Made by a program: the position numbers and the translations under genes | Virus record (IMG/VR): IMGVR_UViG_3300037067_019009 | Coordinates: 96,001-160,000 of that record | Origin: a virus | Lineage: Duplodnaviria > Caudoviricetes | DNA length: 64,000 nucleotides | Strand: one strand, 5' to 3' | Notes under the pieces: model-generated | What the model was told of the DNA's origin: nothing | Databases searched by the model: none | What the model saw: the letters and a program-made list of their open reading frames with translations, nothing else | In this document: in pieces, positions 4,855 through 16,906 of the stretch | Layout of the letters: every line of letters begins with the position of its first letter | How positions within the stretch are numbered: the first letter of the stretch is position 1

Positions 4855-6519
4855 CTACTGTTTCATTGATAATTTATACAGTCTATTAGCCTGAATGGCC
4901 ATCAACGTATTACCATCGGCTACCAGTTGCATATCGGCGGAAAACGCCGGGTCTGAAAATCTTCTAGTTCCTGTGCTTCCCTTCCTCGAAGAGAATAGCA
5001 CAATGTCGGTTCCTTCTACCATCACTACAGCCACTCCGCTATCGAGTACAGCCATACTTATTCCAGTATAAGTTATATCCTCATGCTTTATAATGTCATA
5101 AGAGGAGTAGTCATTGGAAAACCGGAATATGAACATATCATATACGGATTGTTTTTCTCCAACCACAGCCAGAACTCCACGCTCGAACTTGGCATCAACT
5201 ACCTTATAGCCCTTCAGTTCAGGTATCTTGACATTATAGGTACATCCGGCCTTGGGTAAAATCGTAGCGAACCACATGCCCAAAGCATCTTGCATAGCCA
5301 CTCCATCAAACATAGTAGTAGACTTAGATGTCACGTTAGCAACCATCGTAGCCGCTGGGAATACACTTGGGTACAACTCCTTAAGTTCAATATGGAGTAG
5401 CTTATTACCCTGCTTAACATACACATCACCTCCGTAGCTGAACATATCATCCACATCAAGAATCATGGGTATTTCTCTCGGAGAATCGATGCCTGCCATT
5501 TTCAGCATGTCCTGCTTCCATACAGCCACACGCTTACCGGAGGTTGTCCTGGCTATATGGAAATCCCCGCCCCCAAACACCCTCTTTGCTCCACTATAAG
5601 TACCAGTCGAGGTGATGGCCAAACCACACCTATAGCTTATTATATTAGAGCTATACTCATGCACCAGCTCCATATTAATAAGCCCTGCGGTTACTATAGG
5701 CTTGCTTACAATCGTGGTAAATACGATAGCCTCTATGCCCTCCGGAGGAGGAATACGTTCTCCCCCTTCCAACACCCGCAGGTACCACTGAAAATACCCG
5801 GAAGGTATTACGTCAAATGGTTGACATACTGGCGGAACAGACACATCTTTGTTAAGGACCGATAGATTGGCCAGCATCCTTTCGTCTAAGCCACTTACTC
5901 TCGGATGGCTGCCTTTATAAGGATGTATCCCAGTGAACATCTGAAAGGATACTATCGCAAAAGAAAACCAATCGGTTCCTTCGTTGAATACACCTGGCTT
6001 AGAGTGCCTATCTCGCACACTCTCCATGAGCACAGGAGCCGCGTAATGTGGACACCCGTAAGAATCTACATCTATGAAATAAATGGTATCGAATTTTGAG
6101 CTGACAAGAAAGTTCATCTCATTTAAATCTACAAGGAGTATACTGCAGTCATGAATGCCTTGCACTCCGGTACGCTTGCGATGTACTAGTTTGTTAATTA
6201 TCTCCGGGGTGATACCATGCTTAGTCCTGAAAACTGCAGGAAACAATTTGCAGAGCGGGTAAGAATCCTTGATGTACCGCATAGTGTAGCCGATTGGCTC
6301 ACCACTGCCGCTGAGCAGAATATCTTCCGGCTTGATAACATCCGGGTTAGTAATCCTGGAAAGCTCCCTGATCTTGCCAACAGGAATCATCTTGCTTGGA
6401 TCATGATAGATTTTGTAAGCTTCAAACCCACGGACATATATCGAGCCTTCCCCACCAGTTGCAATAAAGTCATTCTGCGTTAGTGTGACTTTACTTTTAC
6501 CCTGCACGTATACATCCAT
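4855..6519 (-). CDS. Ser/Thr protein kinase of TerY-P triad type
   Basis: GGEGSIY glycine loop, KIY lysine, DLNEMNFLV catalytic loop, IDVDS, DWFSFA, GIHPY. Confidence 0.85.
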   Translation of the reverse strand: MDVYVQGKSKVTLTQNDFIATGGEGSIYVRGFEAYKIYHDPSKMIPVGKIRELSRITNPDVIKPEDILLSGSGEPIGYTMRYIKDSYPLCKLFPAVFRTKHGITPEIINKLVHRKRTGVQGIHDCSILLVDLNEMNFLVSSKFDTIYFIDVDSYGCPHYAAPVLMESVRDRHSKPGVFNEGTDWFSFAIVSFQMFTGIHPYKGSHPRVSGLDERMLANLSVLNKDVSVPPVCQPFDVIPSGYFQWYLRVLEGGERIPPPEGIEAIVFTTIVSKPIVTAGLINMELVHEYSSNIISYRCGLAITSTGTYSGAKRVFGGGDFHIARTTSGKRVAVWKQDMLKMAGIDSPREIPMILDVDDMFSYGGDVYVKQGNKLLHIELKELYPSVFPAATMVANVTSKSTTMFDGVAMQDALGMWFATILPKAGCTYNVKIPELKGYKVVDAKFERGVLAVVGEKQSVYDMFIFRFSNDYSSYDIIKHEDITYTGISMAVLDSGVAVVMVEGTDIVLFSSRKGSTGTRRFSDPAFSADMQLVADGNTLMAIQANRLYKLSMKQ

Positions 6520-8471: not shown

Positions 8472-10142
8472 TTATATGTTTCCCAAAGCGAATTGGGAAA
8501 TAAGATTTGGAGTAGCGGTATCAAACCCCACCAAATCTAGCATCCCAGAGTCATCCGGGTCTGCGATAGAGAACCCATTGCTTACCATCCCTACCACTAC
8601 GGATCTGGCGTTAGGGTTGATCTTCTTCCGGTACTCAGCGAGAGCCTGGGTGGGATGAATCTTTCCAGCCCAAGTCTCGCTATCCGTGTACACAACGAAT
8701 AAATCTATATTTAGATTGTTCTTTAATGCGTATAAAATAGGCAAAGAGCAATCTGTGCCACCGGCATCCAGTCCCTCTATATATTGGCATACGTCGCTTA
8801 TCCGTTGCTTACTACTGATATCAAGAGCAGAGACACTAGGAATACGACGATTAGTAGAGTCGGCTGTAAAACCTGTCACGACGACGTTCTTCTCAACAGC
8901 CTGGGTAACTAAAGCCATCGCAGCAGAACCAACTCTTGGAGTCAGTCCTGGGCAACCAGCAATGTTCACCCAAGTCATCGACGCAGATAAATCAAGAGCC
9001 AGCATTATATTTTTTCCGGTTGGCTCAACGTTTCCAAATGCAGTGTAGAATGCTCTATTGAGCGCGTCCACTACCTGTGTTACTGGCGTCCAGCTCCCAC
9101 TGCCCCTTACTCCCATCCCTGATCCGTATGTCAGAAGCGCCTTGAGTACATCTATAGGATGGACTCTACTCTTCCTGATCATCTCAACATCTGATAGCTT
9201 ATCTACCACGAAGTTGATAATGTCGAACTTCCCTGGAGCTAATAACCCACTCTTACTAAAGTTGCCCAGGTTCCTGAGTATTGCATGAAAAGGCATCTCC
9301 TGCAACAACTCCAGCTGCACATCCGGATCGCTCTTGAACTGAGAAGGTATGCACTCATGTGGAAGATTATAATCCTTAATTAAAGATATTATACCTTTCT
9401 TCCCGTCTTCAGTTTTAGCTTGCTCGAACGCGTAAATTATCTTAGCTGGAGTACCAGCAAACGTTTTTGCATCCAAGCCCTCGCGCACAACCCCGCGCTT
9501 CTTGTCTTCCCATCCATTAGTGCCATGTGTACACCACTGAAGGATGTTAGAGAAGAGATCGGAGTCCGCTTTAACATGAGATAGCCTGAGCAAATCTCTA
9601 TGGCTCCACCCATCACGCTGCTGGTACTTAGTAACTTGCAGTGACAAGGCACCGGCCGACTTACCTAAGTACCAATCCGCAACAGCGTTCTTCAGTAGGC
9701 GCCCCCATCCGCGAAGGTTAGTAACGTATTCAGCGAAGTGGAATAAGTGAGTTCCGATCCTGCAGACTTGGGGCAAAGCCGCAGCAGCTGCTTTCTTTGT
9801 TTCCACATCTCCAAAACTCATACACGCGGCGAGGGCGAAGATACAAGGGTCATTCTTTGGCGCTCGTCCAGCCTGAGAGATATCGACTATCTCTTTAACC
9901 AACTCGACGCCACTTGCCCTAATTACATTCTCCATAGCAGCAAAACTCTTCAGAGTCATATCTTTCTCTGTAGCATAATAGCTGCCACCCTCAGTGCCGA
10001 GGATCAAGAACCTCTTCACCTTCATCCACTCACTCACTTCGAATGAGTATCCCCCTGCCTGATTCTCCACCATCGACTTACCTGGAATAGGCTGGGTTTG
10101 CGGAGTTTTCTTTACAGACACATGCTTACTGTAGTTAGTCAT
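8472..10142 (-). CDS. rsr: Ro60/Rsr TROVE-domain RNA-binding protein with C-terminal vWA domain
   Basis: NQAGGYSF, RFLILGTEGGSYY, VCRIGTHLFHF, GWGR, KYQQRDGWSHRDLLRLSH, MIDAS DLSASM, GGTDCSLP, YTDSETW, GFD motifs. Confidence 0.95.
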   Translation of the reverse strand: MTNYSKHVSVKKTPQTQPIPGKSMVENQAGGYSFEVSEWMKVKRFLILGTEGGSYYATEKDMTLKSFAAMENVIRASGVELVKEIVDISQAGRAPKNDPCIFALAACMSFGDVETKKAAAAALPQVCRIGTHLFHFAEYVTNLRGWGRLLKNAVADWYLGKSAGALSLQVTKYQQRDGWSHRDLLRLSHVKADSDLFSNILQWCTHGTNGWEDKKRGVVREGLDAKTFAGTPAKIIYAFEQAKTEDGKKGIISLIKDYNLPHECIPSQFKSDPDVQLELLQEMPFHAILRNLGNFSKSGLLAPGKFDIINFVVDKLSDVEMIRKSRVHPIDVLKALLTYGSGMGVRGSGSWTPVTQVVDALNRAFYTAFGNVEPTGKNIMLALDLSASMTWVNIAGCPGLTPRVGSAAMALVTQAVEKNVVVTGFTADSTNRRIPSVSALDISSKQRISDVCQYIEGLDAGGTDCSLPILYALKNNLNIDLFVVYTDSETWAGKIHPTQALAEYRKKINPNARSVVVGMVSNGFSIADPDDSGMLDLVGFDTATPNLISQFALGNI

Positions 10143-10188
10143 TTGCTTTTGGTTCCTCTGGTCCTAGTCAGGACAAATCATTTGTAGT

Positions 10189-10325
10189 TGGGTGGTGGTG
10201 GGACTCGAACCCACACGTCCTTTCGGACAGCTGTTGCTGATAACCCTAACTGTCGGCTCTTAATAGAGAGCTAGTATTCGCTAGGATGTATATACGGCCG
10301 CGTCTGCCATTACGCCACACCACCC
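10189..10325 (-). ncRNA. tRNA-Leu-like body carrying a circularly permuted Y-RNA (Ro-binding) module in place of the anticodon loop
   Basis: Acceptor GGTGGTG/CACCACC, D arm GCG-TAATGGCAGA-CGC, long variable arm GTCC-GAAA-GGAC, T arm GTGGG-TTCGAGT-CCCAC; 59-nt insert (10235-10293) with CCTAGC..GCTCT-CTATTA-AGAGCCGA..GTTAGG-GTTATC. Confidence 0.8.
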
Positions 10326-10350
10326 GTATTTGAAACACGGATACATATAG

Positions 10351-10426
10351 AATATGCTGAGCAAGTAAGATAGCTATGGGGGTGATCATTGGCAGTGATA
10401 ACCATAGCCAATCGGCTCAGCATATT
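10351..10426 (-). ncRNA. Y RNA-like (copy 3 in transcription order)
   Basis: Lower stem GCTGAGC-(bulged C)-GA / TTGCTCAGC, upper stem TGGCTATGG/CCATAGCTA, GGTTATC motif. Confidence 0.85.
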
Positions 10427-10437
10427 ACTAATAGTTC

Positions 10438-10500
10438 TGCCGGACAAGTAGATTGGTGACGATGTTGTCCTTATGATAACCGTCACCATTCGGCCCGGCA
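10438..10500 (-). ncRNA. Y RNA-like (copy 2)
   Basis: Lower stem TGCCGGGC-(C)-GA / TTGTCCGGCA, upper stem TGGTGACGGT/ATCGTCACCA, GGTTATC motif. Confidence 0.85.
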
Positions 10501-10506
10501 CATATC

Positions 10507-10579
10507 TTCCACCGAACAAACAAATTGGTCATGGAGCGATCAGTACAAGTGATAACCATGACCTAACGGCTCGGCGGAA
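10507..10579 (-). ncRNA. Y RNA-like (copy 1)
   Basis: Lower stem TTCCGCCGAGC-(C)-G / TGTTCGGTGGAA, upper stem GGTCATGG/CCATGACC, GGTTATC motif. Confidence 0.8.
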
Positions 10580-10590
10580 CAACCTAAACA

Positions 10591-10619
10591 ATTATATGTT
10601 ATTTATGTTTACTTGTCAA
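10591..10619 (-). promoter_or_regulatory. consensus sigma70 promoter for the Y-RNA array and Ro60
   Basis: TTGACA-17 bp-TATAAT on the minus strand, just upstream of the first Y-like hairpin. Confidence 0.9.
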
Positions 10620-10635
10620 GAGCGATTTATTTATG

Positions 10636-10912
10636 ATTTGGTAGTGGGCTGGATTCCCCACTCAGCTCCTACACAGCTTTTTCGACATCTCACTAGAGTT
10701 ATACTCACTAGATTATAATCCCAGCACAATGCCTCTCACGAACTTCGATACTGTATTAGTGATATACAGTTACGTTCTCCGCTGCACTTTTTGCGGCAGG
10801 TAATAGGGATACTTTTGGGCTCTTCACTCAAGAGGCAGGCCCAGTGTATCTAATACCCCATCTCCGACACCATTCTGCCTTACCTAGCGCTGCCACGCTA
10901 CCACTACCAAAT
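10636..10912 (-). ncRNA. candidate ~277-nt structured ncRNA
   Basis: 12-bp terminal inverted repeat ATTTGGTAGTGG/CCACTACCAAAT enclosing several hairpins (TAGCG..CGCTA, ACTGTAT..ATACAGT, GGGC..GCCC); no convincing ORF. Confidence 0.5.
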
Positions 10913-10990
10913 ACTTATAAACTGGCTCATAGCGCCTTTCTTTACCTGCACCATCTAGGTATAGATCGGTTACACATGTAACCGCTTATC

Positions 10991-15141: not shown

Positions 15142-15218
15142 CTAGGAAACAAAGTGGGAACTGAAGAGAGTTGTAGCACGGATCATCGATTCCAAAGGAG
15201 ATCTACCCTCTGGAATAG

Positions 15219-15295
15219 TCGGCGGGTAAGGATTTGAACCCCAGTCCTCCTACTAGTACATTACTGTAGACACTCTACCACTGAGCTACCCGCCG
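15219..15295 (-). tRNA. tRNA-like RNA with 12-nt anticodon loop (no assignable anticodon)
   Basis: CGGCGGG/CCCGCCG acceptor, TAGCTCAGTGGTAGAGT D arm, TCTAC-AGTAATGTACTA-GTAGG, TGGGG-TTCAAAT-CCTTA T arm. Confidence 0.75.
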
Positions 15296-16177: not shown

Positions 16178-16813
16178 GGTTGTGCCCCTCAGCGAGTTAT
16201 ATAATTATACGTACACGCTCTAGTTATAGAATAAGTATTGTAGATTTTGTCCTGCTACACGACATATACAGTGATGTCATCCGAATGCTGCCCCGCTGCT
16301 GCTGGTCGTTGACTACAAAAGTAGTAGGATATCCTCCCACAACTCATCAGCATCTAGTTCCCCTGTGTTCGGTTGACAGGACAAATATAAAGACAAGACA
16401 ACAAGCTATCTTGAAGGATATATTCTCGGGAGTTACATGCAAAGTAAACCCAATCCTCAACATGCTTACCCACAGGGGTGTTTCCATATTGGGAATGTCA
16501 AGATAACTACTCTACCCACAACCTTGCTCTACTGCCTTGCCTATTGATCCACCAGGAGATCATCCCTTGCAGTATCAATCTCTACTACTAGGCTACTAGA
16601 CCATTATTCTGCCACCGCAGAAAAATTAGCAATAAATAGAACAAAGACGACCAGTAGAATCTCACTGGTACCATAGTTTCCATCACAGGCGGTGGTAATA
16701 CAAGCTATAGCGGAGCCAAGGGCTCCTACTAAATCTATAATAGCAACAACTGATTTCATAACATCATACCTTCCATTCATCTAATAGAATAGACTAGCTA
16801 TAAATATAAGCCA

Positions 16814-16906
16814 TCAGCGGGGAAGGACTCGAACCCCCGACCTTGCACATGTTACAGTGCTTTCTCCTTAAATAGGAGTCGCTCTACCAACTGAGCTACC
16901 CGCTGA
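16814..16906 (-). tRNA. tRNA-like RNA with two hairpins in place of the anticodon arm
   Basis: CAGCGGG/CCCGCTG acceptor, TAGCTCAGTTGGTAGAGC D arm, hairpins CTCCT-ATTTA-AGGAG and GCAC-TGTAACAT-GTGC, then AGGTC GGGGG-TTCGAGT-CCTTC T arm. Confidence 0.75.

What the first reader, a model, noticed from the sequence alone, without database searches (positions are those of the whole stretch)
8472..10619. Phage Ro60 locus with a promoter-driven array of three minimal Y RNAs resembling animal Y RNAs
Seen: a perfect TTGACA-17-TATAAT promoter, then three 63-76-nt hairpins, a tRNA-Y hybrid and Ro60. The hairpins differ in sequence but share a lower stem with a bulged C (GAGC-C-GA or GGGC-C-GA opposite TTGCTC/TTGTCC), an upper stem with compensatory changes, and GGTTATC at the loop boundary. 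Known: Ro60 binds the bulged-C helix of Y RNAs. From memory, human Y1 begins GGCUGGUCCGAAGGUAGUGAGUUAUC, close to copy 2 (GGGCCGAATGGTGACGGTTATC). Typical bacterial YrlA RNAs carry a tRNA-like domain, which these three lack. Inference: a self-contained viral Ro-Y system with interchangeable adaptor RNAs whose variable loops may recruit different partners (PNPase, ligases) or guard phage RNA.
Basis: partly seen in the sequence, partly recalled or inferred. Interest (0 to 1): 0.9.

Follow-up and report, generated by a model that had tools for sequence, protein, structure and literature searches.

The report
Phage Ro60 operon with four Y RNAs
An uncultured 212-kb phage carries a gene for the ring-shaped RNA-binding protein Ro60 preceded by a strong promoter, three small hairpin partner RNAs (Y RNAs) and one tRNA-shaped Y RNA; this is a clear new example of a known system, and the hairpins belong to a widespread family that has no Rfam model.

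Summary
On the minus strand lie a perfect TTGACA-17-TATAAT promoter, three paralogous 63-76-nt hairpins, a tRNA-shaped RNA and a canonical Ro60 gene (TROVE plus vWA domains).

The hairpins share a lower stem with a bulged C, an invariant G.U pair, a covarying 8-bp upper stem and GGUUAUC. A covariance model built from them finds the same hairpin next to Ro60 in 62 of 80 phage loci and 67 of 80 bacterial loci, almost always on the Ro60 strand. In whole bacterial genomes it hits only the Ro60 locus.

They are therefore very probably Ro60-binding Y RNAs of the hairpin type. That type is already known from YrlB, Yrn2 and Yrl1/Yrl2 of Thermus phage phiLo. Arrays of two to four hairpins are common.

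The 5' block matches human Y1, Y4 and Y5 in register. The loops are conserved rather than diversified, so the "interchangeable adaptor" idea is not supported.

Neither Rfam model (Y_RNA, YrlA) detects the hairpins.

This scan has already reported partner-RNA arrays beside Ro60-like genes on other DNA, with a different handle.

Verdict: a real feature, a new member of a known kind, of moderate interest.

The parts
10591..10619 (-). Sigma-70-type promoter TTGACA-17-TATAAT. The -10 hexamer ends 11 nt before the first base of hairpin 1.
   Evidence: 12 of 12 matches. It is the only exact match in the window. Promoter-like sites are enriched directly upstream of such RNA clusters in other loci.
10507..10579 (-). 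Hairpin Y RNA 1. Its Ro-binding motif is the variant GAGC-C-GUUA, with a U.U mismatch where the other copies have A-U.
   Evidence: Fold z -4.9. R1 90 bits and R2 67.6 bits. Pair counts.
10435..10503 (-). Hairpin Y RNA 2. It has GGGC-C-GAA, a shortened loop, and the closest match to mammalian Y1.
   Evidence: Fold z -4.3. R2 72.1 bits. 19 of 30 positions identical to the Y1 5' end.
10352..10425 (-). Hairpin Y RNA 3. It has GAGC-C-GAU and the loop UUAUCACUGCCAAUGAUCA, which matches the family consensus.
   Evidence: Fold z -5.1. R2 74.2 bits. Consensus.
10190..10324 (-). tRNA-shaped Y RNA in tRNA order. It has an open 7-bp acceptor stem, a D arm, a closed Ro-binding stem (GCUCU-CUAUUA-AGAGC-C-GA) in the anticodon position, GGUUAUC, a GAAA-capped variable arm and a T arm. 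No CCA is encoded.
   Evidence: Rfam tRNA 35 bits with a 67-nt insert. Ten relatives have fully covarying acceptor stems. The class is also present in other phage and bacterial loci.
10143..10189 (-). Leader of the Ro60 mRNA. It holds a small hairpin (GUCCUGACUAGGAC) and the Shine-Dalgarno sequence GAGGA, 11 nt before the ATG.
   Evidence: Read directly from the sequence. No terminator-like site lies on this strand between the promoter and the end of Ro60.
8472..10142 (-). Ro60 gene, 556 aa, with TROVE ring and vWA domains.
   Evidence: Pfam TROVE 1e-38 and vWA_Ro60 1e-54. It scores 416 bits to RO60 chain 9nen, 399 bits to Xenopus Ro 1yvp and 385 bits to D. radiodurans Rsr 2nvo.

Best explanation
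This is a phage Ro60/Y RNA operon.

Host RNA polymerase starts at the consensus promoter a few bases before hairpin 1. It probably reads through three hairpin Y RNAs, one tRNA-shaped Y RNA and the Ro60 mRNA (inferred: no terminator lies between them).

The tRNA-shaped element is probably cut out by RNase P and the 3' tRNA-processing enzymes, which would separate the RNA array from the mRNA. This is inferred by analogy with M. smegmatis YrlA.

Each RNA then binds the outer face of the Ro60 ring. The binding site is the conserved helix with a bulged C, a G.U pair and the CGAA-type motif. This step is inferred from sequence and from the binding shown for Xenopus Ro and for phiLo Ro60.

The conserved top of the hairpin (GGUUAUCA...GAUCA) most likely docks one common partner. 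By analogy with D. radiodurans, Salmonella and phage phiLo this partner would be the host exoribonuclease PNPase. The phage would thereby redirect or restrain host RNA decay, or counter a host defence.

The three hairpins are lineage-specific duplicates kept in shape by compensatory changes. They are most simply read as a dosage supply of Y RNA, not as different adaptors.
For: - **Anatomy.**
- **Duplicates under selection.** Eight of 21 pairs show compensatory changes among the three copies.
- **Family in phages.** The model of the three copies finds 38 further hairpins in 80 phage Ro60 loci, all on the Ro60 strand. These show 92.6% pairing and 151 double-change cells against 48.7 in shuffles.
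- **Wider family.** The refined model finds 126 phage hits and 202 bacterial hits, with 1 and 4 of them on the opposite strand. The median distance is about 200 nt upstream of Ro60.
- **Independent bacterial set.** 87.6% of cells are paired, and 624 cells change on both sides against 217 in shuffles.
- **Specificity.** In four of five whole bacterial genomes all six hits at E<=0.01 lie inside the Ro60 locus.
- **Ro-binding helix.** The G.U pair after the bulged C is kept in 25 of 26 phage sequences and 124 of 135 bacterial sequences.
- **Likeness to human Y RNAs.** The 5' block is shared in register with human Y1, Y4 and Y5.
- **Precedents in print.** Two Y RNAs processed from one precursor upstream of Rsr, and RNase P cleavage with CCA addition on YrlA (PMC4201824). 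phiLo Ro60 binds upstream CGAA hairpins and forms complexes with PNPase (PMC12135203).
Against: - There are no expression, processing or binding data for this phage.
- Hairpin 1 has GUUA instead of GAA and a U.U mismatch, so it may bind more weakly.
- Neither Rfam Y_RNA nor Rfam YrlA matches.
- The partner of the loop is unknown. PNPase is an analogy only.
- The host is unknown, and the phage also encodes its own small RNA polymerase, so use of the sigma-70 promoter is assumed.
- The pair counts were made on alignments fitted to the model, which favours the structure.
Confidence: 0.8

Rival explanations
1. The hairpins are not free RNAs. They are cis-acting Ro60 binding sites in the 5' leader of the Ro60 mRNA, through which the protein regulates its own synthesis or mRNA stability.
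For: They lie on the same strand directly upstream of the gene, with no terminator between. The same position, a median of about 200 nt upstream, is typical of the family.
Against: - A tRNA-shaped element with a 7-bp acceptor stem separates them from the ORF and should be excised by RNase P.
- 17 phage hits lie downstream of Ro60 instead.
- In M. smegmatis, D. radiodurans and Salmonella the equivalent RNAs accumulate as discrete Ro60-bound species (PMC4201824).
Confidence: 0.1
2. The hairpins act as decoys or sponges for host factors such as host Rsr, PNPase or a defence nuclease, and do not need the phage Ro60.
For: Multiple copies behind a strong promoter would suit a titrating role. A Ro60-like protein of phage Bas63 was reported as a counter of the ppl defence (PMC11482910).
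Against: The family is tied to a Ro60 gene in cis in both phages and bacteria, and in whole bacterial genomes it was found nowhere else. This is what is expected of a dedicated protein partner.
Confidence: 0.06
3. The hairpins are decayed remnants of YrlA genes that lost the tRNA-like domain, or chance repeats, and have no function.
For: They carry the YrlA-type 5' motif and GGUUAUC but lack the T, acceptor and D arms.
Against: Compensatory changes maintain both helices within the phage and across phyla, and the loop is conserved. Each copy folds with z of -4.3 to -5.1.
Confidence: 0.03

Closest known systems
Thermus phage phiLo Ro60 with Yrl1 and Yrl2 (PMC12135203, 2025)
   Same: It is a phage Ro60 gene preceded by hairpin Y-like RNAs with a CGAA motif in a stem-bulge-stem and no tRNA-like domain, three CGAA hairpins in all. 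Binding was shown by gel shift and cryo-EM, and complexes with host PNPase were shown.
   Different: - The window's Ro60 is much closer to animal and D. radiodurans Ro60. phiLo Ro60 was not among the PDB matches at E<=0.001.
- The window adds a tRNA-shaped Y RNA and a consensus promoter.
- I could not compare the RNA sequences directly, because the phiLo record was not fetched.
Bacterial hairpin Y RNAs YrlB (S. Typhimurium, M. smegmatis) and Yrn2 (D. radiodurans), PMC4201824
   Same: [quoted passage not shown] In M. smegmatis it is processed from one precursor upstream of Rsr.
   Different: These were described in single species and 'eluded bioinformatic discovery'. The family here is conserved in sequence across phages and several bacterial phyla, and it keeps both strands of the metazoan-type helix. 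Homology to YrlB or Yrn2 themselves was not tested.
YrlA (Rfam RF02553; PMC4201824; structure 6cu1, bioRxiv 10.1101/312249)
   Same: It has the same 5' Ro-binding motif followed by the conserved YUAY (here GGUUAUC). Long hits of my model are YrlA-type RNAs with the tRNA-like domain in the loop.
   Different: The three hairpins lack the T, acceptor and D arms. The fourth RNA has them but in tRNA order, with an open acceptor stem and a closed Ro-binding stem. RF02553 gives no match in the locus.
Metazoan Y RNAs (Rfam RF00019; Xenopus Ro-Y RNA structure 1yvp)
   Same: They share the helix with a bulged C followed by G.U and A-U, an upper stem of about 8 bp and then GUUAUC, in the same register as human Y1 and Y4.
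   Different: The hairpins have no long pyrimidine-rich loop and are not polymerase III genes. RF00019 gives no match at E<=10. The 3' block alone is not significantly similar.

Membership tests
Ro60 protein (TROVE ring plus vWA domain) | TROVE and Ro60-type vWA domains over the full length | tested here: met
   Pfam TROVE 134 bits and vWA_Ro60 185 bits. Full-length matches to 9nen, 1yvp and 2nvo at E 1e-114 or better.
Y RNA (functional class: Ro60-bound small RNA) | Encoded beside Ro60 and on the same strand | tested here: met
Y RNA (functional class) | Stem formed by the 5' and 3' ends, carrying the Ro-binding helix: bulged C and a GNCGAA or GGUCCGA-type 5' strand | tested here: met
   The 5' strands are GAGC-C-GUU, GGGC-C-GAA and GAGC-C-GAU, each with a G.U pair after the bulge. 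The helix is conserved and covarying in the family. Hairpin 1 deviates from GAA.
Y RNA (functional class) | Physical binding to Ro60, and dependence on Ro60 for accumulation | not testable with these tools
   This needs gel shift, CLIP or a Northern blot.
Rfam Y_RNA RF00019 (metazoan) | Covariance-model score of at least 38 bits | tested here: not met
   No match at E<=10 in the whole 212-kb genome or in the region scan.
Rfam YrlA RF02553 | Covariance-model score of at least 69 bits, and a tRNA-like domain (T, acceptor-like and D stem-loops) inside the Ro-binding stem | tested here: not met
   The only match is an 11-bit hit elsewhere in the genome. The hairpins have no T or D arm. The fourth RNA has these arms in a permuted order.
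Hairpin-type bacterial or phage Y RNAs (YrlB, Yrn2, Yrl1/2) | Long hairpin with the CGAA-type motif in a stem-bulge-stem, a small loop and no tRNA-like domain | tested here: met
Hairpin-type bacterial or phage Y RNAs (YrlB, Yrn2, Yrl1/2) | Sequence homology to the named RNAs | not tested

The most novel reading that the evidence does not exclude
The short hairpin RNA found here would be the core, possibly ancestral, form of the Y RNA and a true homologue of animal Y RNAs. It is present beside most Ro60 genes of phages and of several bacterial phyla. Its 23-nt 5' block (Ro-binding strand, 8-nt upper-stem strand, GUUAUC) is shared in register with human Y1, Y4 and Y5. On this reading GUUAUC would be a second conserved contact for Ro60 or for a universal partner, and YrlA-type and tRNA-order Y RNAs would be this hairpin with a tRNA inserted in either of two topologies.
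Probability: 0.3. Interest if true: 0.6.

Novelty: new member of a known kind. Interest (0 to 1): 0.4.

Why it matters
Ro60/Y RNA particles are conserved from bacteria to humans, where Ro60 is a lupus and Sjogren autoantigen. What the Y RNA loops do is still poorly understood, and phage versions have only begun to be studied.

This locus is a compact four-RNA example with a clean promoter. More usefully, it led to a covariance model of a short Y RNA family that neither Rfam model detects. That family marks most Ro60 loci in the phage and bacterial sets searched, and it is also present in a cultured mycobacteriophage.

The family gives a handle for annotating Y RNAs. It also allows a test of whether the conserved GGUUAUC loop start, which human Y RNAs share, contacts Ro60 or an effector.

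Tried and rejected
- **Rfam, whole window at gathering thresholds** found only three ordinary tRNAs and missed the tRNA-shaped Y RNA. A permissive scan of the region found only the tRNA match.
- **Rfam Y_RNA and YrlA** run alone on the whole genome gave nothing relevant.
- **Megablast against cultured phages** found no similar DNA.
- **ARAGORN** did not call the tRNA-shaped RNAs in the window or the loci.
- **RtcB** is absent from the genome. An Rnl2-type RNA ligase lies about 50 kb away, so no RNA-repair neighbourhood supports a repair role. The flanking ORFs gave no informative Pfam or PHROG match.
- **The 2020 Annual Review on bacterial Ro60** could not be read. I therefore cannot exclude that the short family or the tRNA-order form is described there.
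- **The 8-nt 3' block** (ACUUGUCC) is not significantly similar to human Y RNAs on its own.
- **Small ORFs overlapping the hairpins** (43-69 aa) were set aside as spurious, given the RNA covariation.
- **No covariance model of the tRNA-order class** was built. That element is the subject of a separate note of this scan.
Full report
**What is there**

All genes of the finding lie on the minus strand. The order is as follows.
- A perfect TTGACA-17-TATAAT promoter at 10619..10591. It is the only exact match in the window.
- Three hairpins: H1 10579..10507, H2 10503..10435 and H3 10425..10352.
- A 135-nt tRNA-shaped RNA at 10324..10190.
- A 47-nt leader with a GAGGA ribosome-binding site.
- A 556-aa ORF at 10142..8472.

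The ORF is a canonical Ro60. It matches TROVE (1e-38) and vWA_Ro60 (1e-54). It scores 416, 399 and 385 bits over its full length to RO60 chain 9nen, Xenopus Ro 1yvp and D. radiodurans Rsr 2nvo.

No terminator-like site lies on this strand between the promoter and the end of Ro60. The window is part of a 212,668-bp IMG/VR virus record that has terminase and portal genes. No cultured phage has similar DNA.

**The three hairpins**

Each folds much better than its shuffles, with z of -4.9, -4.3 and -5.1. Aligned, they share these features:
- a lower stem ending in G(A/G)GC;
- a bulged C;
- a G.U pair, followed by A-U in two of the three copies;
- a small asymmetric internal loop;
- an 8-bp upper stem ending in GG;
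- the loop start UUAUCA;
- ACUUG or GUUUG on the 3' strand.

Of 21 pairs, 96.8% of cells are paired. Eight pairs change on both sides, against 3.2 in shuffles. Registers slid by 1-3 columns pair only 33-47%. The copies score 78-90 bits against their own model, while the best foreign hairpin scores 44 bits. They are therefore duplicates within this lineage, kept in shape by compensatory changes. The whole genome holds only these three copies.

**A conserved family tied to Ro60**

I fetched 80 phage loci (IMG/VR, at most 50% Ro60 identity) and 80 bacterial loci (mostly Chloroflexota, Verrucomicrobiota and Armatimonadota).

The model of the three copies (R1) found 38 further hairpins in the phage loci, all on the Ro60 strand. 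On 28 sequences, 92.6% of cells pair. There are 151 cells with changes on both sides against 48.7 in shuffles (0 of 500 shuffles as high), and the G.U pair after the bulge is kept in 25 of 26.

The refined model (R2) gave these results:
- 126 phage hits, one of them on the opposite strand;
- 202 bacterial hits, four of them on the opposite strand and all four in one locus;
- at least one short hit in 62 of 80 phage loci and 67 of 80 bacterial loci;
- at least three short hits in 8 phage loci and 2 bacterial loci;
- a median distance of about 200 nt upstream of the Ro60 frame.

The bacterial set, which is independent of the window, shows 87.6% pairing and 624 double-change cells against 217 in shuffles. 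These alignments were fitted to the model, which favours the structure, but the slid controls stay at 36-48%.

In five whole bacterial genomes of 3.8-8.2 Mb, all six hits at E<=0.01 fall inside the Ro60 locus, in four of the genomes. Only 150 candidates per genome were scored.

Longer hits of 110-190 nt are YrlA-type RNAs that carry a tRNA-like domain in the loop.

**Loops**

The loop is not free to vary. The consensus UUAUCACU..AAUGA.CA is shared by phage and bacterial hairpins. H1 and H3 carry it, and H2 has a shortened version. It fits one common partner.

**Likeness to animal Y RNAs**

Human Y4 and Y5 are printed in PMC5648034 and PMC13376739.

H2 and Y1 are identical at 19 of 30 positions without gaps.

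A position matrix of the 23-nt block GGGCCGAA-N8-GGUUAUCA was built only from bacterial hairpins. At the correct offset it scores:
- Y4 at 17.4 bits, with 0 of 20000 shuffles as good;
- Y1 at 15.5 bits, with 0 of 20000 shuffles as good;
- Y5 at 8.1 bits, with 1 of 20000 shuffles as good.

The 3' block alone is not significant. The Rfam metazoan model does not match. The likeness is therefore real but limited to the Ro-binding strand, the upper-stem spacing and GUUAUC.

**The fourth RNA**

The fourth RNA matches the tRNA model at 35 bits, with a 67-nt insert in the anticodon position. The insert is a Ro-binding stem closed by a loop (GCUCU-CUAUUA-AGAGC-C-GA), followed by GGUUAUC, a variable arm and the T arm.

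YrlA has the opposite topology, with a closed acceptor-like stem and open ends at the Ro-binding stem (PMC4201824; bioRxiv 10.1101/312249).

Ten such RNAs from phage loci have 7-bp acceptor stems that differ completely in sequence yet always pair. A simple scan finds this tRNA order in 9 phage and 24 bacterial loci, and the YrlA order in 15 phage and 25 bacterial loci. Rfam YrlA does not match the locus. This element is covered by a separate note of the scan (e1-5642982).

**Mechanism**

*Shown by sequence and comparison:*
- a promoter that abuts the first hairpin;
- four RNAs with a conserved Ro-binding helix;
- a canonical Ro60 gene with no intervening terminator;
- strict linkage of the RNA family to Ro60.

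Promoter-like sites with at least 9 of 12 matches lie within 70 nt upstream of the first RNA in 23% of phage clusters, against 5.7% of control positions.

*Inferred from published systems:*
- Ro60 binding through the CGAA helix, as in Xenopus Ro and in phiLo Ro60, where single CGAA changes lower affinity three- to four-fold (PMC12135203);
- docking of host PNPase by the apical part, as in D. radiodurans, Salmonella and phiLo.

The purpose in infection is open. It may be to redirect or restrain host RNA decay, or to counter a defence. A Ro60-like protein of phage Bas63 was reported to counter the ppl system (PMC11482910).

The genome has no RtcB. It has one Rnl2-type RNA ligase far from the locus.

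**Novelty**

The following are already in print:
- phage Ro60 genes and YrlA-type RNAs in 22 phages;
- at least two Y RNAs per bacterial species, including hairpin forms (PMC4201824);
- three CGAA hairpins upstream of a phage Ro60, with binding shown (PMC12135203).

Arrays of two to four hairpins are common in my phage set. The locus is thus a new member of a known kind.

What may be under-described is the family itself. It is a short, sequence-conserved Y RNA beside most Ro60 genes searched. Neither Rfam model detects it, and its 5' block is shared with human Y RNAs.

It also occurs in the cultured mycobacteriophage Cali, with two hits upstream of Ro gp224. That phage offers a system for tests.

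This scan has already reported partner-RNA arrays beside Ro60-like genes in other phages and giant viruses, with a different conserved handle.

Noticed in passing
L143:878-2435, also L120, L134, L138, L141 (bacterial, mostly Verrucomicrobiota): Runs of six to ten tandem YrlA-like units of 110-150 nt, plus one short hairpin about 65 nt before the Ro60 start. These Y RNA arrays are much larger than the two RNAs described for model bacteria.
   Followed up: partly
L001:2575-2700, L033:2859-2980, L050:2114-2389, L075:1647-2062, and 24 bacterial loci such as L084, L085, L091: tRNA-order Y RNAs have an open 7-bp acceptor stem, a D arm, a closed Ro-binding stem in the anticodon position and a T arm. 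They are widespread, mostly in Chloroflexota among the bacteria. The YrlA order dominates in Verrucomicrobiota.
   Followed up: partly
L167:1596-1674 and 1872-1947 (Mycobacterium phage Cali, NC_011271): Two short hairpin Y RNA hits (40.5 and 27.3 bits) lie in the unannotated 480-nt gap upstream of Ro gp224 of a cultured phage.
   Followed up: partly
window 10712-10739 (-): A second promoter-like site, GTGAGA-16-TATAAT (10 of 12 matches), lies about 120 nt upstream of the perfect one, within a roughly 370-nt stretch (10620-10990) where the only ORF of 40 aa or more on this strand ends at 10559, inside the hairpin array.
   Followed up: no
window 10325-10350 (-): A small hairpin (CCGUGUU-UCA-AAUACGG) lies between hairpin 3 and the tRNA-shaped RNA and overlaps the first bases of its acceptor stem. 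It might compete with acceptor-stem folding or mark a processing site.
   Followed up: no
window 4855-6519 (-): A 554-aa ORF two genes downstream of Ro60 gives a weak protein-kinase domain match (E 3e-4, below the Pfam cut-off).
   Followed up: no
G000:C1:56640-57125 (outside the window): An Rnl2-type RNA ligase domain (PF09414, 57.5 bits) is present. No RtcB is present in the 212-kb record.
   Followed up: no
window 15218-15295 and 16813-16906 (-): tRNA genes with extra bases in or beside the anticodon arm (12-nt loop; 20-nt insert) are visible in the Rfam alignments. Another note of the scan already covers them.
   Followed up: no
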